From a virus, in the IMG/VR virus record IMGVR_UViG_3300044977_000094, positions 111,261 to 175,260 of that record: 64,000 nucleotides of DNA; one strand, given 5' to 3'. The notes under the pieces were generated by a model. The model did no database searches. It had not been told where the DNA came from and was given only the letters and a program-made list of their open reading frames with translations. The translations under genes and the position numbers were made by a program. This document shows, piece after piece, positions 17,280 through 21,804 of the stretch. Each line of letters starts with the position of its first letter. The first letter of the stretch is position 1.

Positions 17280-18170
17280 TCAGCCCTTCGGGACCTGCAG
17301 GCCGTCCCAGGACTCCTTCCCCGGCGGCCACTTCAGGGCGTCGCCGGTCCAGCCGAGGTTGTGGCGCCGCGAGAACTCCGCCTGCCACGCCTCGTACGAG
17401 TTCACGTCCCCGGTCCCGATGACGTCCTTGCCCAGACTCGACCGGTACTTGTCACAGCCCTCCGCGACCAGCCGCGCATGCATCCGGCCCACCACGGGCG
17501 ACACCCGGCCCATCGTGAACCACGCCGCGCCCGGAAACGGCTCATACGACGGGGCCGGGGCGGGCTTCGGCGCCGGAGGCTTCGGAACCTTCGCCGACGC
17601 CCACGCCCGCAACGCAGCCGCGCTAGCCGCCGCCGACACATCCTGATCCACCCCACCAGCAACCGCCCACTGATGGAACATCCACGGATGCTCAATCCCC
17701 GGCTCACCAGCAGGCAGACCCGTCGTCGCGATCCACAGGAAATCCCCGCAGTCCGACGTCGTATCCACGTTCAACCAGTAGTCCTTGTTGCAGTACAAGC
17801 CCGTCTGGTGCTGCGGCTGCTTGCCCCGCACATACGCCAACCACGCGCCCTTGAACACAGCCTGCGCCGGCTTCGGCACCGCGAGGTTCGCCGCGTCGTA
17901 GCCCTCCCAGTCCAGACACAACACCTCACCCGCCGTCGGCTGCGCCACCGACAGGAAGTGATCCGCCTCCGCCGCCGGCGAGTTCGCCATATCCGGGTAG
18001 TGATACAGCCCCACAACCAGACCGGCCGCCGCGGCGTGCGCGCGCTGCTGCTGCCACAGCGGATTGACGTAGGTCAGGCCCTGCGTGACCTTGATGAAGG
18101 CAAACGACAGGCCCGACGTGCTCGGGGTGGGCGACTGGTACGACGCCCAGTCCTGGCCGTTGACGGTCAT
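17280..18170 (-). CDS. Endolysin: GH25 muramidase with C-terminal peptidoglycan-binding domain
   Basis: GQDWASYQ, FAFIKVTQG..Y.NP, GLYHY, LDWE, HQW...VDQD; C-terminal YEPFPG..F..GR.SP.V domain. Confidence 0.92.
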   Translation of the reverse strand: MTVNGQDWASYQSPTPSTSGLSFAFIKVTQGLTYVNPLWQQQRAHAAAAGLVVGLYHYPDMANSPAAEADHFLSVAQPTAGEVLCLDWEGYDAANLAVPKPAQAVFKGAWLAYVRGKQPQHQTGLYCNKDYWLNVDTTSDCGDFLWIATTGLPAGEPGIEHPWMFHQWAVAGGVDQDVSAAASAAALRAWASAKVPKPPAPKPAPAPSYEPFPGAAWFTMGRVSPVVGRMHARLVAEGCDKYRSSLGKDVIGTGDVNSYEAWQAEFSRRHNLGWTGDALKWPPGKESWDGLQVPKG

Positions 18171-18182
18171 GGTGCGCTCCTG

Positions 18183-18581
18183 TCAGACCGCGGCGGGCGG
18201 TGCGGGGATCGGCGCCGGCCCCGGTGCCGGCTGCGGGACGAGAGACGCCGTCGGAGTCACGTGGATGCGCAGGACCAGCGACAGCACGGCCACGACGACA
18301 GCGTTCAGCGAGCTGACCTCCCCGGTCGTGACGTGAGGCACACCGAAGGCCATCAGGACCGTGGCCACGGCCGACAGCGCACCGGTCAGCGCCGCCACCG
18401 GGAACGGGCGCACGCTCACCGCCGCGACAAGCGCCAGGACCGCGGTGGTCACCGCCTCCAGCGCGCCGGTCTGGCCAGCCGTGAGACTGAAGCCGAGGCC
18501 CACGACGAGGGCCAGCAGGGACTGCACCAGGCCGGTGATCAGCACCGGCTCAGTTCGGATGGTGTTGACGATTCTGCTCAT
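18183..18581 (-). CDS. Holin-like membrane protein
   Basis: Four hydrophobic segments, R.EPV start and R.HVTP end; directly upstream of endolysin. Confidence 0.75.
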   Translation of the reverse strand: MSRIVNTIRTEPVLITGLVQSLLALVVGLGFSLTAGQTGALEAVTTAVLALVAAVSVRPFPVAALTGALSAVATVLMAFGVPHVTTGEVSSLNAVVVAVLSLVLRIHVTPTASLVPQPAPGPAPIPAPPAAV

Positions 18582-18594
18582 GGTGAGGGTCCCT

Positions 18595-19425
18595 TCAGGC
18601 CGCGAGGATGAGCTGCTTGTAGTCCGCATAGGCGCCGAGGAGCGCCAGCGTGGACAGGTGGATCCGGTACGAGCCGTGATCGCCCCACGACTCCGACCAG
18701 GAGTTACGGACGCGCACGTGGGACTTGTCGCCGTCGATCCGGCCGAGCAACCCGGTCGTCAGGCGCTCCACGGCGGTGATGCAGGTCTCGTGACCGCCGG
18801 CCACGCCGGAGGCGATCGCCCGCTCCAGCGCCGCGATACCGCCGTCGCCGTCGACGAATCCCAGGGAGTCGGGCTCCATCCACGCCTCGAACCAGGGCAG
18901 GCCCACCATGACGGTGCCCCCCTGGAGCAACGAGACGACGTTGCGTATCCCGGAGGCGGTCTTGTGACCTGAGGCCAGGCCCTTCTTCTCCAGCTCCGTG
19001 CACACGTACAGGCCGGTGCTGCCGCAGTCGGTCGGCGGCCACTCCTGTGCCGGGTCGCCGGTCTGGTCGGTGACGTCGTGGTACAGCTTGATCGCGAACT
19101 TCTCGCCGCCGACGCTGTCAGTGGTCGACAGGCCGATCTGCGGGAGCGCCGCGGCTCCATGGAGGGCGGCGTACCGCTCTGCCACGTGTGCGGTGCCGGA
19201 GTTGCAGGTGCAGGATCCGAGCGCGTCGACCTTCGCCGCTCCGGGGACCAGGGCCGAGGTGTCGATGCCCTGTGCCAGGAGATCCTCCTGGTCCAGGACC
19301 GGGATCGGGGACTCGTGGTCGACCTCGCGCAGCGTCTCGCCGCGGTGCAGGTGCATGCGGTCCAGGCGCATCGGCATCGGTGCCGCGTGCCGGCCGAACT
19401 TGGTGGGGGTGATGCCTTCGTACAT
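18595..19425 (-). CDS. Papain-like (C1) cysteine peptidase
   Basis: DQ...GSCT.N, GGHE, VRNSWSESWGD.G catalytic motifs. Confidence 0.85.
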   Translation of the reverse strand: MYEGITPTKFGRHAAPMPMRLDRMHLHRGETLREVDHESPIPVLDQEDLLAQGIDTSALVPGAAKVDALGSCTCNSGTAHVAERYAALHGAAALPQIGLSTTDSVGGEKFAIKLYHDVTDQTGDPAQEWPPTDCGSTGLYVCTELEKKGLASGHKTASGIRNVVSLLQGGTVMVGLPWFEAWMEPDSLGFVDGDGGIAALERAIASGVAGGHETCITAVERLTTGLLGRIDGDKSHVRVRNSWSESWGDHGSYRIHLSTLALLGAYADYKQLILAA

Positions 19426-19488
19426 GGGCCCCTCCGGGCATGGGAAAGCCCCCGACTCGCGGGGGCGTGAGTGGTGGAGCGGAGGTGC

Positions 19489-19947
19489 TCAGGCGTCTGC
19501 GGGATCCACATGAACGGAGGCCGCGACGTTCACCTGTACAGGTGCGGTCTGCTGCTCGATGACGGCGAGGCGCTCGGTCAGCGCGGTCAGCTGCTCGGCC
19601 AGGGATGCGAGGGTGGCCAGCTCCTGGCGCTCGTCGGCGAGGCTCTCGTCGGTGCTGGCCCCGATGTGCTGCAGGAGCAGTTCGAGGCTGCGCTCCTGCC
19701 GGTTGTTGCTCGCCGCGATCAGGAAGCCGATGAACAGCTCCAGGATGGTCGTCACGGTGTTCAGCGGGAAGTTCCAGCTGTTCGACGTGAACCAGACCGG
19801 CAGGAAGCTGGACTTGGCGATGACCGGGCCAAGCAGCGTCCACGCCACCAGCAGCACGAACCAGATCCCGATGTTCTGCGGTGTGCCGATGGCGTACGAG
19901 ACGCGGTCGGCGGCGTCGACGAAGCGGTCGATCAGGCGACGGCTCAT
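19489..19947 (-). CDS. Low-affinity iron permease (Fet4)/DUF1003-like membrane protein
   Basis: F..AAD.V...IG...W.LLGP...WNFPLNTVTTILELFIGFLIAASNNRQ followed by coiled coil. Confidence 0.6.
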   Translation of the reverse strand: MSRRLIDRFVDAADRVSYAIGTPQNIGIWFVLLVAWTLLGPVIAKSSFLPVWFTSNSWNFPLNTVTTILELFIGFLIAASNNRQERSLELLLQHIGASTDESLADERQELATLASLAEQLTALTERLAVIEQQTAPVQVNVAASVHVDPADA

Positions 19948-20381
19948 GCAGCACTCCCGGGCAGGAACAGGCCGCACAGCAGCACGGCGATGAAAATCGC
20001 GGCCAGGACCGCGCCGGTCTCGACCAGAGCGCGCAGTGGACGCCGATTGGGTCGCATCAGCGCCACCGCGACGCCGATCCCGATGCAGATGACCACCGAG
20101 GCGCCGATCGCCAGCGGGCCCGTATCGAACGCGTACGGCAGCGCCGGCAGCGCCGCCCCGAGGCCCGTGGCGAGGCCCATCACGCAGGACGCGCCGAAGC
20201 CGTTGTCGCTCTCGCTGAGCCACTCCCCGCCCGCCATCGACAAGGCAGAGCTGATCGCACCCGACACAGCCGCCGGGAAGATCAGATCGCGGTGGCCCAA
20301 CAGGTAGAGCACGACGCCGAGCAGCGACATCATGCCGTCGGACAGCCCGAATATCGCCGGGCGAACGAGCCGCTGCTTCAA
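19944..20381 (-). CDS. Minimal VIT1/CCC1-family Fe/Mn transporter
   Basis: AIFGLSDG...SALSMAGGEWLS...LPALPY; about five TM segments; TTG start overlaps upstream stop. Confidence 0.8.
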   Translation of the reverse strand: MKQRLVRPAIFGLSDGMMSLLGVVLYLLGHRDLIFPAAVSGAISSALSMAGGEWLSESDNGFGASCVMGLATGLGAALPALPYAFDTGPLAIGASVVICIGIGVAVALMRPNRRPLRALVETGAVLAAIFIAVLLCGLFLPGSAA

Positions 20382-20830
20382 GAGATCAGACCCCTGACGT
20401 ACCTGGACGCCTCGTAGTCCGACGCCGCGGCTACGTGCACGCCTCCGTGGCCGCGGTGGCAGGCCCGGCACAGCCACTGCAGGTTGTCCGCGGACTCGAC
20501 CCACGCACCGACCTGGTTCGGGTCGCTGATGCCGGGATAGTCCCGCTCCAGCCACGCCAGGTCCACGCCGTTCTGCAGGCTGAACTCGACGTGTGAGTGG
20601 TGCAGTTCAAGCGGCGCGCTCAGGTCGCACTCGGAGAAGTCGCCGCGGGCCACGCCCATGGCGCACTTGGCGGTGGCCTTGGTGCGGCGCCGGTACGCCT
20701 CGAAGTCGCGGTAGTGCGGATCGTCCTGCCGCGCCGGGTGCTCCGGGTAGTGCATGACGTAGTGGTGGGCCTGGGCCTGCTCGTGCGCAGCGACCTGGTG
20801 TCCAGGGTGCCCCGACAGGTCGTCGGTCAC
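20378..20830 (-). CDS. His/Cys-rich HNH-like protein
   Basis: C...C...LELHH..VE...NLQWLCRACH....VH. Confidence 0.6.
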   Translation of the reverse strand: MTDDLSGHPGHQVAAHEQAQAHHYVMHYPEHPARQDDPHYRDFEAYRRRTKATAKCAMGVARGDFSECDLSAPLELHHSHVEFSLQNGVDLAWLERDYPGISDPNQVGAWVESADNLQWLCRACHRGHGGVHVAAASDYEASRYVRGLIS

Positions 20831-21252
20831 GGAGTCCTCCGGTTGCGAGGGGCGCGCGTGCGGTGCGCGCCGGGAGTGGAAGGGCCGTCGTCGGGCGGAT
20901 CGTTCTCGTGCTTGATCTGGATGCGGAGGATGAGCACGACGCGCCAGACGATGACGATGGGCACGAGCCCGAAGGAGATGACGGAGAACCACGCGAACAG
21001 GGGCGTATCAGCCGAGCTGACGCCCAGCGCGTGGTGGATGACGGAGGGCAGCAGCGTCAGCGCCAGTGCGCTGTCCATCGCCAAGGCGTTGCGCCCTATG
21101 GCCGAGCGCCACCACGGGGCGACCGCCCACAGGACGAGGATGGCCCCGACGGCGGCACAGAATGTGGCGATGACCTCGATGGTCGTGGTGTGGACGATGA
21201 CGTCCAGGGTCCCCGGGCTCACGGTCCCCTCCCGAATGGTGACGCTGGTCAA
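20827..21252 (-). CDS. Three-TM holin-like membrane protein
   Basis: Three hydrophobic helices, PWWRSAIGR motif. Confidence 0.65.
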   Translation of the reverse strand: MTSVTIREGTVSPGTLDVIVHTTTIEVIATFCAAVGAILVLWAVAPWWRSAIGRNALAMDSALALTLLPSVIHHALGVSSADTPLFAWFSVISFGLVPIVIVWRVVLILRIQIKHENDPPDDGPSTPGAHRTRAPRNRRTP

Positions 21253-21494
21253 CGTGGCGGAAGACCGAACAACTCGCCGATTGACTCGCTGAAGTGGTTA
21301 CGGCGCCGGATACGGCGCAAGTGCTCGGCGGTCGTCGATACCTGCACACGCAGGCCCTCGGCCTCGCGGAGAGCCGACGACGCCCGGACCATCGCCGCCG
21401 AGGCGTCGCGCTGGCCCTCCGTCACCCTGCGCTCCAAGCACACGCCCTGCGGCCTACGAAGCGGGTGGCGGAGGTAGTGGACCCAGCGGTGCAC
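21249..21494 (-). CDS. Small basic lysis-cassette protein
   Basis: RRIRRRNHFSESI motif typical of actinophage lysis regions. Confidence 0.6.
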   Translation of the reverse strand: MHRWVHYLRHPLRRPQGVCLERRVTEGQRDASAAMVRASSALREAEGLRVQVSTTAEHLRRIRRRNHFSESIGELFGLPPR

Positions 21495-21804
21495 CGGCCG
21501 TCACCTCCCGCCCAGATGGCGAAGGGAGCGCGGAGAGCAGATGGACGGCAGTGCGTGACAGCTCCAGGAGCTCCATCGTCGACTCCTGCGACTGTGCTCG
21601 GGCCGCTGCCTCGCGTTCGGCCACCACGCGCCAGGTGTCGCGCTCGGCTGAGATCTCTCTTATCCGCAGCTCGCGGTCCTCGCGGAGGTCTTCGACCTGG
21701 CGGCGGGGCACGAGCCGGCCGGTGAGGATGAGCAGGATGACCACCGCCAGGATCGTGGCGGCGCTGAGCTGGAGGAAACCGGCTTGGTCCCAGAGTTCTT
21801 CCAC
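21454..21804 (-). CDS. Single-TM coiled-coil membrane protein
   Basis: ILAVVILLILTGRLVPR...WR motif. Confidence 0.7.
   Translation of the reverse strand: MEELWDQAGFLQLSAATILAVVILLILTGRLVPRRQVEDLREDRELRIREISAERDTWRVVAEREAAARAQSQESTMELLELSRTAVHLLSALPSPSGREVTAGAPLGPLPPPPAS

What the first reader, a model, noticed from the sequence alone, without database searches (positions are those of the whole stretch)
19489..20830. Metal-transporter-like gene trio translationally coupled inside the lysis operon
Seen: a His/Cys-rich HNH-like protein, a 145-aa VIT1/CCC1-like protein (FGLSDG, SMAGGEWLS, apparently lacking the cytosolic metal-binding insert) and a protein resembling the Fet4 low-affinity iron permease/DUF1003 fold (W..LNT.TTI...FLI...NNRQ). 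They overlap start-to-stop between holin-like genes and the protease-holin-endolysin block. Known: VIT1/CCC1 proteins export or sequester Fe/Mn, and Fet4-like proteins import Fe(II). Inference: a late-expressed phage iron-flux module (metal supply, oxidative killing or lysis timing), or transporter folds co-opted as holin/antiholin components. I know of no description of this arrangement.
Basis: partly seen in the sequence, partly recalled or inferred. Interest (0 to 1): 0.8.

Follow-up and report, generated by a model that had tools for sequence, protein, structure and literature searches.

The report
Mini iron-transporter genes in phage lysis operon
A prophage of a soil actinomycete carries, inside its cell-bursting (lysis) operon, a stripped-down relative of the plant/yeast iron transporter VIT1 followed by a small two-helix membrane protein of the Fet4/DUF1003 kind; the pair recurs in many uncultured phages right before the wall-degrading enzyme, and nobody has described what it does there.

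Summary
On the minus strand, four genes are joined by 4-base start/stop overlaps: Phage_holin_2 (20827-21252), an HNH-like His-rich protein (20378-20830), a 145-aa VIT1-family protein (19944-20381) and a 152-aa Iron_permease/DUF1003-type protein (19489-19947). A hairpin follows, then a C1-like peptidase, a second holin and a GH25 endolysin.

The VIT and Iron_permease assignments pass Pfam's own cut-offs. The VIT model matches only the EgVIT1 crystal structures. The roughly 72-residue cytosolic metal-binding domain is missing, while the Asp43/Gly44/Met80 equivalents are invariant.

A second, about 75%-identical prophage in the same record keeps VIT and the partner under purifying selection but has a PLD-like gene in place of the HNH gene. 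Of 26 distinct VIT-short loci, 11 have a Fet4/DUF1003-superfamily gene just downstream. About 16 have a peptidoglycan hydrolase within three genes. Partner type does not follow the VIT tree, so partners are swapped often.

The "trio" is therefore really a recurrent pair. The HNH-like gene belongs to a separate, very abundant lysis-cassette family. I found no match in 50,697 deposited phages, none in PHROGs, and no paper.

Function is untested. I favour a lysis-linked ion-conducting membrane module (0.45) over plain Fe/Mn efflux (0.3). This scan had already found the same kind of gene on other DNA.

The parts
21454..21804 (-). 1-TM plus coiled-coil protein (116 aa from the GTG start that the sibling prophage also uses); first small gene after the tail fibre gene
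   Evidence: phrog_4565, E 9e-12. Similar 1-TM proteins of 134-185 aa sit directly upstream of VIT-short in many other loci.
20827..21252 (-). Holin candidate, Pfam Phage_holin_2 (141 aa, about 3 TM)
   Evidence: PF23778, 45 bits against a cut-off of 32. 70% identical in the sibling prophage, dN/dS 0.27.
20378..20830 (-). His-rich HNH-like protein (150 aa); its start overlaps the holin stop (GTGA)
   Evidence: HNH scores 14.1 bits, below the cut-off. Invariant C56, C68, H77, H78, H80, N116, C121, H125, H132 in 24 homologues. 1,281 or more homologues at 70-80% identity. It sits in lysis cassettes without VIT. A PLD-like gene replaces it in the sibling prophage.
19944..20381 (-). VIT-short: 145-aa, 5-TM VIT1/CCC1-family protein without the cytosolic metal-binding domain; TTG start overlaps the HNH-like stop (TTGA)
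   Evidence: PF01988, 40 bits against a cut-off of 28.1. AF2 model pLDDT 88. The best PDB matches are 6iu4/6iu3 EgVIT1, prob 1.0, TMq 0.76/0.69. Invariant D15, G16, M49 correspond to EgVIT1 D43, G44, M80. dN/dS 0.31.
19489..19947 (-). Fet4/DUF1003-type partner: 152 aa, N-terminal helix, 2 TM, with TM2 continuing as a long cytoplasmic coiled-coil helix; ATG overlaps the VIT stop (ATGA)
   Evidence: PF04120, 32.5 bits against a cut-off of 25. Model pLDDT 86, helices 23-44 and 59-134. 162 homologous clusters, of which 30 of 70 sampled match Iron_permease and 3 of 70 match DUF1003. dN/dS 0.26.
19448..19466 (-). GC-rich hairpin (7-bp stem, 5-nt loop) followed by CUUUCCC, in the 63-nt gap between the Fet4-like gene and the peptidase gene
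   Evidence: Folding. The same position in the sibling prophage holds a hairpin with a different stem sequence, z -2.35. Whether it acts as a terminator or a stabiliser is inferred only.
18595..19425 (-). Papain-like (C1) peptidase, 276 aa
   Evidence: phrog_16701 peptidase, E 3e-16. Peptidase_C1 is weak. Homologues at 54-57% identity in the cassettes of L018, L022 and L023.
18183..18584 (-). Second holin candidate (about 133 aa from the ATG that aligns with the sibling copy; the ORF extends to 18629)
   Evidence: phrog_9752 holin, E 3.5e-13. 74% identical in the sibling prophage.
17280..18170 (-). GH25 muramidase endolysin, 296 aa, no signal peptide seen
   Evidence: PF01183, 88.7 bits. phrog_291 endolysin.

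Best explanation
The VIT-short gene and its Fet4/DUF1003-type neighbour are real, selected membrane proteins. They belong to the phage's lysis operon and are made late, together with the holins and the endolysin.

Shown: family, fold, operon position, recurrence next to endolysins, and purifying selection.

Inferred: VIT-short forms a VIT1-like dimer in the host cytoplasmic membrane. It keeps the conserved Asp/Gly/Met cation path and an acidic cytoplasmic loop (E53, D57). It has lost the metal-capturing domain and the Glu72 position that couples protons in EgVIT1. It should therefore act as a small, poorly coupled conduit for divalent cations or protons.

The 2-TM partner has a polar TM2 (N59, N63, T66, T67, E70, N82, R83) and a coiled-coil tail. 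I read it as an oligomeric co-channel or regulator of class-II-holin shape.

Together they would leak ions and depolarise the membrane late in infection. That would set or sharpen the moment at which the true hole-formers (Phage_holin_2, phrog_9752) release the GH25 endolysin and the peptidase. This is a pinholin- or antiholin-like accessory role rather than bulk metal nutrition. The HNH-like gene is a separate lysis-cassette resident, not part of this module.
For: Position:
- 4-base overlaps chain holin-2, HNH-like, VIT and Fet4-like, and no promoter-like site lies inside the block.
- Across 26 distinct VIT-short loci, a peptidoglycan hydrolase of varying type (GH25, Amidase_2, PG_binding_1, Rv2525c-like) lies within three genes downstream in about 16. 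VIT-short often overlaps its neighbours by 4 bases.
- In the L010, L007 and L019 lineages, VIT-short is the only polytopic membrane protein beside the endolysin.
- In six lineages the Fet4/DUF1003 partner sits directly before the endolysin, which is the classic holin slot.
- Partners and endolysins are shuffled relative to the VIT tree, as lysis-cassette modules usually are.

Distribution:
- The gene is phage-borne, not a host core gene. It was found in 2 of 301 Streptomycetaceae genomes, and its nearest ESM Atlas clusters are 75-86% viral.

Fold and residues:
- VIT1 fold without the MBD.
- D15, G16 and M49 are invariant, while the E72 position is an invariant Gly.
- Conservation is concentrated in TM1, TM2 and the acidic loop, which line the pathway in EgVIT1 (PMC7714665).
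Against: - No experiment exists, and no holin HMM (Pfam, PHROGs) matches either protein.
- The window already has two holin candidates, so neither gene is needed to explain lysis.
- VIT-short lacks the charged C-terminal tail typical of holins.
- Mean column identity of 66% with invariant polar residues is high for a holin and fits a transporter under functional constraint.
- Some loci are not visibly lysis cassettes: L029/L030 sit among small genes, and L012/L013 sit before a glycosyltransferase.
- MBD-less plant VTLs do transport iron (PMC7714665), so loss of the MBD does not by itself imply loss of transport.
Confidence: 0.45

Rival explanations
1. Genuine metal-efflux auxiliary gene. VIT-short, like plant VTLs and bacterial VIT/MbfA exporters, pumps Fe2+ or Mn2+ out of the cytoplasm late in infection. 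This would limit Fenton damage or metal toxicity while virions mature, which would matter in acidic, iron-rich soils and bogs. It sits in the late operon only for timing of expression, and the Fet4/DUF1003 protein is a second metal path or a regulator.
For: - Pfam VIT1 and Iron_permease hits above the cut-offs.
- VIT1 fold, with the Asp43/Gly44/Met80 equivalents invariant and a conserved acidic cytoplasmic loop.
- MBD-less VTLs are active iron transporters (PMC7714665).
- Some VIT-short loci are not next to an endolysin.
- Homologues come largely from bog or soil metagenomes and from an acidophilic Streptacidiphilus.
- Metal import and export genes are strongly re-programmed in an actinophage infection (PMC10986025).
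- An earlier follow-up in this scan reached this reading on other DNA.
Against: - The constant placement just upstream of whichever endolysin the phage has, with translational coupling, is not expected of a metabolic gene.
- The Glu72 position, used for iron and proton movement in EgVIT1, is Gly.
- In the one actinophage transcriptome read, the host's own VIT exporter is shut down during infection, so efflux seems unwanted. This is a single system.
- No benefit of exporting metal minutes before lysis is evident.
Confidence: 0.3
2. Lysogenic-conversion cargo (a moron). The pair is expressed from the resident prophage and gives the host tolerance to excess iron or manganese.
For: - The genes are prophage-borne and sporadic among host genomes.
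- PHROGs places the weakly related phrog_3485 membrane protein under 'moron, auxiliary metabolic gene and host takeover'.
- A hairpin closes the block.
Against: - No promoter-like site lies in front of or inside the block.
- The genes are chained by 4-base overlaps to a holin gene of the late operon.
- Co-expression with a holin from a repressed prophage would be lethal.
- The same position is kept in many diverged phages.
Confidence: 0.08
3. Membrane scaffold or antiholin without any transport. The transporter folds are kept only as stable membrane anchors that bind and hold back the holins or the endolysin.
For: - Lysis-cassette position (as above).
- The coiled-coil tail of the partner suits protein-protein contacts.
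- Partners are exchangeable.
Against: - The most conserved positions are exactly the polar and Gly residues of the VIT1 ion path and the polar face of the partner's TM2. A mere anchor would not need these.
Confidence: 0.1

Closest known systems
EgVIT1 / VIT1-CCC1 family (PF01988; PDB 6IU3, 6IU4), and within it the MBD-less plant VTL and prokaryotic group IA/II proteins
   Same: - Five-TM fold (TMq 0.76, prob 1.0).
- Pfam score above the cut-off.
- The Asp43, Gly44 and Met80 equivalents are invariant.
- Like VTLs and some prokaryotic groups, it lacks the cytosolic metal-binding domain (PMC7714665).
   Different: - Only 145 aa.
- Gly at the Glu72 position.
- A short conserved acidic loop (EWLSDSDNG type) stands where the MBD would be.
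- Carried by tailed phages and prophages inside lysis operons.
- About 16% identity to EgVIT1.
- Not found in 50,697 deposited phages or in PHROGs.
Yeast Fet4 low-affinity Fe(II) permease family (PF04120) and bacterial DUF1003 (PF06210)
   Same: - The conserved core (NFPLN-TT ... FL ... NR) scores above the PF04120 cut-off.
- Relatives span PF04120 and PF06210.
   Different: - A 152-aa protein with 2 TM and a long coiled-coil tail, not a large polytopic permease.
- No solved or informative structural relative.
- No bacterial member has a tested function as far as my paper searches show.
Phage holins, pinholins and antiholins (for example class II holins such as S21 68, from my own knowledge; Pfam Phage_holin_2 and phrog_9752 in this window)
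   Same: - Small membrane proteins encoded directly before the endolysin, translationally coupled, and shuffled between phages.
- The partner has the class-II shape: N-in, 2 TM, charged C-terminal tail.
   Different: - No sequence or profile match to any holin family.
- VIT-short has 5 TM and no charged tail.
- Both belong to families of cellular ion transporters and are much more conserved than holins usually are.
Short VIT-fold proteins of giant viruses (BFVD A0A5J6VL61 Megaviridae, 145 aa; CeV-01B A0A0N9QR04)
   Same: Similar length and fold (TM 0.74 and 0.55, prob about 1.0).
   Different: - Eukaryote-infecting viruses with no lysis cassette.
- 14-18% identity.
- Relationship beyond the shared fold was not tested.

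Membership tests
VIT1/CCC1 (PF01988) | Profile match above Pfam's gathering score | tested here: met
   40.0 bits against 28.1, in two stretches on either side of the missing MBD. Also 34.5 and 32.8 bits for the two genomic copies.
VIT1/CCC1 (PF01988) | Five-TM fold of EgVIT1 | tested here: met
   AF2 model pLDDT 88, pTM 0.81. 6iu4 and 6iu3 are the only matches with high probability, with TMq 0.76 and rmsd 2.7 for 6iu4.
VIT1/CCC1 (PF01988) | Pathway residues Asp43, Gly44, Met80 (EgVIT1 numbering) | tested here: met
   D15, G16 and M49 align to them and are invariant in 70 homologues.
VIT1/CCC1 (PF01988) | Glu72 (iron and proton movement in EgVIT1) | tested here: not met
   It aligns to the invariant G41. 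The alignment is weak (8-11 bits per stretch), so the register could be off by a turn, but TM2 holds no acidic residue before E53.
VIT1/CCC1 (PF01988) | Cytosolic Glu-rich metal-binding domain between TM2 and TM3 | tested here: not met
   About 72 residues are absent. This does not define the whole family: groups IA, II and plant VTLs also lack it (PMC7714665).
VIT1/CCC1 (PF01988) | Fe2+/Mn2+ transport; dimer with the pathway at the interface | not testable with these tools
Fet4 low-affinity iron permease (PF04120) | Profile match above Pfam's gathering score | tested here: met
   32.5 bits against 25, model positions 2-85 of 128. 30 of 70 homologues also match.
Fet4 low-affinity iron permease (PF04120) | Polytopic permease architecture and Fe(II) uptake, as in yeast Fet4 | tested here: not met
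   Only 2 TM plus a coiled coil in 152 aa. Uptake cannot be tested here. The Fet4 architecture is recalled from my own knowledge.
DUF1003 (PF06210) | Profile match | tested here: inconclusive
   The window protein itself does not hit PF06210. However, 3 of 70 relatives do. The same slot downstream of VIT holds clear DUF1003 proteins in L020, L023, L032, L033 and L049. The L006 partner aligns to the family profile at 96% probability.
HNH / His-Me finger endonuclease (PF01844) | Profile match; HH...N...H catalytic motif with Cys/His zinc ligands | tested here: inconclusive
   14.1 bits against 21.4, and 4 of 24 homologues give weak hits. The invariant H77, H78, H80, N116, C56, C68, C121, H125 and H132 fit the motif. 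No PDB match by sequence or by profile.
Holin (functional class) | Small membrane protein encoded next to the endolysin in the late operon | tested here: met
Holin (functional class) | Membership of a described holin family | tested here: not met
   No Pfam or PHROGs holin family matches VIT-short or the partner.
Holin (functional class) | Timed, lethal membrane permeabilisation that releases the endolysin | not testable with these tools
   Needs expression and lysis assays.

The most novel reading that the evidence does not exclude
VIT-short, alone or with its Fet4/DUF1003-type partner, is a new class of phage lysis protein. It would be a metal-transporter fold turned into a pinholin-like ion leak whose opening (possibly gated by Fe2+/Mn2+ or pH) triggers lysis. 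In phages such as the L010, L007 and L019 lineages it would be the principal holin. That would also give the first function for bacterial DUF1003/Iron_permease mini-proteins.
Probability: 0.25. Interest if true: 0.8.

Novelty: new variant of a known kind. Interest (0 to 1): 0.6.

Why it matters
Lysis cassettes of actinobacterial phages are full of unassigned membrane proteins. All known holins belong to small phage-only families. Here, two families otherwise known as cellular metal transporters are wired into the lysis operon of many uncultured soil phages.

If they time lysis by leaking ions, that is a new route by which phages build a lysis clock. It would also be a first handle on the function of DUF1003 and small Iron_permease proteins. 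If they really move iron or manganese, they are a new kind of late auxiliary gene that links metal homeostasis to phage release in acidic, metal-rich soils.

Either way there is a cultivable entry point, because a related prophage sits in Streptacidiphilus carbonis NBRC 100919.

Tried and rejected
- tblastn of VIT-short (two divergent members) and of the Fet4-like and HNH-like proteins against 50,697 deposited phages gave no match. Only a DUF1003 partner found four weak hits.
- PHROGs has no family for VIT-short or the HNH-like protein, and only a borderline membrane-protein hit for the partner. NCBIfam gave only a far-sub-threshold TIGR00267 hit for VIT-short.
- Fold search of the partner model against about 48,000 PDB representatives returned only generic long-helix and coiled-coil hits, Z 6.7 or less. 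PDB sequence searches for the partner and for the HNH-like protein found nothing useful.
- A complex prediction of VIT-short with the TM part of the partner gave no verdict (score 0.00). This says nothing either way.
- A first attempt to scan viral contigs with the 70-sequence partner alignment failed for lack of a conserved block. A closer 21-sequence alignment worked.
- The idea that the three genes form one conserved trio was rejected. The idea that VIT-short and its partner are stably co-inherited was also rejected, because the partner label needs 10 changes on the VIT tree, the same as shuffled labels.
- The hairpin after the Fet4-like gene is not exceptional by energy in the window (z -0.46), though it is in the sibling prophage (z -2.35). 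I list it only as a positional feature.
- Paper searches for DUF1003, for VIT1+holin+phage and for low-affinity iron permease+phage found nothing on such phage genes.
Full report
**Setting.**
The window is bases 111261-175260 of a 175-kb IMG/VR virus record with about 70% G+C. A self-comparison shows that the record holds two collinear, related prophages at roughly 72-83% nucleotide identity. The finding lies in the second of them. All genes discussed are on the minus strand, downstream of a 697-aa tail-fibre-like gene.

**What is there.**
ORF listing and direct reading of the sequence give this order:
- a 1-TM/coiled-coil protein (21454-21804; phrog_4565);
- a Phage_holin_2 protein (20827-21252);
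- an HNH-like protein (20378-20830);
- a 145-aa VIT1-family protein (19944-20381);
- a 152-aa Iron_permease-family protein (19489-19947);
- a 63-nt gap with a GC-rich hairpin;
- a papain-like peptidase (18595-19425);
- a second holin (18183-18584);
- a GH25 endolysin (17280-18170).

The four genes from holin-2 to the Iron_permease gene are chained by GTGA, TTGA and ATGA start/stop overlaps. Each start has a Shine-Dalgarno-like motif upstream. No promoter-like site lies inside the block.

Pfam supports VIT1 (40 bits, cut-off 28.1), Iron_permease (32.5 bits, cut-off 25), Phage_holin_2 (45 bits, cut-off 32) and GH25 (88.7 bits). HNH reaches only 14.1 bits against a cut-off of 21.4. PHROGs supports the peptidase, the second holin and the endolysin. 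It has no family for VIT-short or for the HNH-like protein.

**The VIT-short protein.**
A profile of the family aligns to the EgVIT1 crystal sequence in two blocks, chain residues 11-67 and 140-187. About 72 residues, the cytosolic metal-binding domain, are therefore missing.

An AlphaFold2 model built from 70 homologues is confident (pLDDT 88, pTM 0.81, five TM helices). Its only high-probability PDB matches are EgVIT1 entries 6iu4 and 6iu3 (prob 1.0; TMq 0.76 and 0.69).

In that alignment D15, G16 and M49 correspond to EgVIT1 Asp43, Gly44 and Met80, and all three are invariant in 70 homologues. The review PMC7714665 describes Asp43 and Met80 as the metal-coordinating and metal-selecting residues at the mouth of the dimer-interface pathway. 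It describes Glu72 as taking part in iron and proton movement, and it states that the MBD is absent in several prokaryotic groups and in plant VTLs, which still transport iron. Here the Glu72 position is an invariant Gly. A short, nearly invariant acidic loop (E53, S56, D57, S58) replaces the MBD.

Conservation is concentrated in TM1, TM2 and that loop (mean top-residue frequency 0.84-0.90). TM4 and TM5 are variable (0.64-0.72). So the protein is a true but minimal VIT-family member whose ion-path side is the part under constraint.

**The partner.**
An exhaustive search finds 162 clusters of small relatives of 120-230 aa. Of 70 sampled, 30 match Iron_permease and 3 match DUF1003, so the protein sits between these two Pfam families.

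The close relatives share an almost invariant core (LP-W-TS---NFPLN--TT--EL-IGFL--A--NR) followed by a variable coiled coil. The model (pLDDT 86) shows an N-terminal helix, TM1 (23-44), a short outer loop and one long helix (59-134). The first third of that helix is TM2 and the rest is a cytoplasmic coiled coil. Structure and sequence searches of the PDB return nothing specific. In shape this is a class-II-holin-like hairpin with a charged tail, but with a strongly conserved polar TM2.

**Replication inside the record.**
The sibling prophage (locus L005) has the same order: holin-2, X, VIT-short, Fet4-like, hairpin, peptidase, holin, endolysin. There, X is a 188-aa PLD-like protein (weak NucT/DrmC-type hits) instead of the HNH-like protein, and the endolysin is of another type.

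VIT-short and the partner are 75% and 71-72% identical between the prophages. Their dN/dS values of 0.31 and 0.26 are like those of their neighbours (0.23-0.27). The hairpin is kept at the same place with a different stem sequence.

**Distribution.**
- VIT-short has 131 relatives in the 5.8-billion-protein index. Nearly all are 128-160 aa, and many are on long contigs.
- Scans returned 21 viral contigs and a prophage in Streptacidiphilus carbonis NBRC 100919. Further contexts came from contig look-ups.
- The gene was found in only 2 of 301 Streptomycetaceae species genomes.
- Its nearest ESM Atlas clusters are 75-86% viral.
- It has no match in 50,697 deposited phage genomes.
- Among UniProt viral models, only giant-virus proteins share the fold.

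After removing duplicates there are 26 distinct VIT-short loci. A member of the Fet4/DUF1003 superfamily lies one or two genes downstream in 11 of them:
- Fet4-like in the window, L005, L017, L031 and L037;
- DUF1003 in L020, L023, L032, L033 and L049;
- a divergent member in the Streptacidiphilus prophage, with hhalign probability 96%.

A recognisable peptidoglycan hydrolase of varying type lies within three genes downstream in about 16 loci. A 1-TM protein of 134-185 aa commonly overlaps the VIT-short start. In the L010, L007 and L019 lineages, VIT-short is the only polytopic membrane protein beside the endolysin.

A few loci do not look like lysis cassettes (L029/L030; L012/L013). On a maximum-likelihood tree of VIT-short, partner presence and type need 10 changes, the same as shuffled labels. 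The pairing is therefore recurrent but not stably inherited, which is what one sees for shuffled cassette modules.

Fet4-like genes also occur in phage contigs without VIT-short, in varied contexts.

**The HNH-like gene.**
Its family is an order of magnitude larger, with 1,281 or more hits, mostly 137-150 aa at 70-80% identity and without any Pfam domain. It occurs in lysis cassettes that have no VIT-short, for example in an Amycolatopsis prophage and next to a GH25 gene in Streptantibioticus cattleyicolor.

Within VIT loci it appears at different positions (L006, L018). Invariant Cys, His and Asn residues fit an HNH/His-Me finger, but profile evidence is below threshold and there is no PDB relative by sequence. 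It should be treated as a separate, interesting family rather than as part of a metal module.

**Interpretation.**
Family, fold, selection, operon wiring and the recurrent position before endolysins are shown. Function is inferred.

I favour (0.45) a lysis-linked role. VIT-short would be a minimal, probably poorly coupled cation/proton conduit. With a 2-TM coiled-coil partner, it would leak ions late in infection and so tune the firing of the true holins.

The main rival (0.30) is genuine Fe2+/Mn2+ efflux as a late auxiliary function. It is supported by the conserved ion-path residues, by active MBD-less VTLs, and by the loci that are not next to an endolysin. An actinophage transcriptome shows that metal traffic is re-programmed in infection, with the host's own VIT exporter repressed (PMC10986025). 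This shows that metals matter but does not favour extra efflux.

A prophage-expressed moron (0.08) is unlikely given the coupling to a holin gene. A transport-dead scaffold (0.10) does not explain why the ion-path residues are the conserved ones. The complex prediction gave no verdict.

**Comparison and novelty.**
VIT-short meets the profile, fold and key-residue tests for the VIT1/CCC1 family and resembles the known MBD-less branch. It differs in size, in the Glu72 position and, above all, in being a tailed-phage lysis-operon gene. The partner meets the Iron_permease profile test but not the Fet4 architecture.

Neither protein belongs to a described holin family. I found no paper on such phage genes. 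An earlier follow-up in this same scan described the same kind of mini-VIT with interchangeable neighbours on other DNA and leaned towards metal adjustment. My tree test agrees on the interchangeability, and my context survey makes me weigh the lysis link more heavily.

I rate this a new variant of a known kind, with interest 0.6.

Noticed in passing
G000:C1:20800-73300 versus window 1700-52400; L005 = G000:C1:33000-41500: The 175-kb record holds two collinear, related prophages (72-83% nucleotide identity in blocks). In the sibling's lysis cassette a 188-aa single-HKD PLD-like protein (weak NucT/DISARM DrmC-type hits) replaces the HNH-like gene, and the endolysin is of a different type.
   Followed up: partly
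window 20378-20830 (-); L047:5001-5492; L048:5001-5420: The HNH-like protein belongs to a very large family (1,281 or more hits) of about 140-aa proteins, 70-80% identical and without any Pfam domain. They sit in lysis cassettes of Streptomyces, Streptantibioticus, Amycolatopsis and Trebonia prophages, often without VIT. Invariant C56, C68, H77, H78, H80, N116, C121, H125 and H132. It is unexplained why a nuclease-like protein is a constant lysis-cassette resident.
   Followed up: partly
window 19448-19466 (-); L005:3630-3652 (-): A GC-rich hairpin followed by CUUUCCC lies between the Fet4-like gene and the peptidase gene in both prophages, with different stem sequences. It may be a partial terminator or an mRNA-stabilising element that splits the lysis operon into two blocks.
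   Followed up: partly
window 21454-21804 (-); L010:5600-6004; L007:5468-5992; L019:5385-5789; L049:3582-4004: A protein with one N-terminal TM helix and a coiled coil (116-185 aa; phrog_4565 in the window) recurs in these cassettes. In many loci it overlaps the VIT-short start by 4 bases. It is a possible single-TM holin or spanin-like partner.
   Followed up: no
window 18595-19425 (-); L018:7392-8213; L022:7797-8621; L023:8931-9746: A papain-like (C1) peptidase without a signal peptide recurs (54-57% identity) between the endolysin and the holin in several of these lysis cassettes. It could be a second lytic enzyme or a maturation protease.
   Followed up: no
BFVD A0A5J6VL61, A0A0N9QR04 (not in the window): Giant viruses (a Megaviridae environmental sample; Chrysochromulina ericina virus) encode proteins of 145-152 aa with the same MBD-less VIT fold (TM 0.74 and 0.55).
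   Followed up: no
L012:6985-8061; L032:6683-10450: In some VIT-short loci the cassette is followed by glycosyltransferase or sugar-nucleotide genes (GT1, GHMP kinase, NTP_transferase, SIS, GT17). These may be cell-wall or glycan-modifying cargo next to the lysis genes.
   Followed up: no
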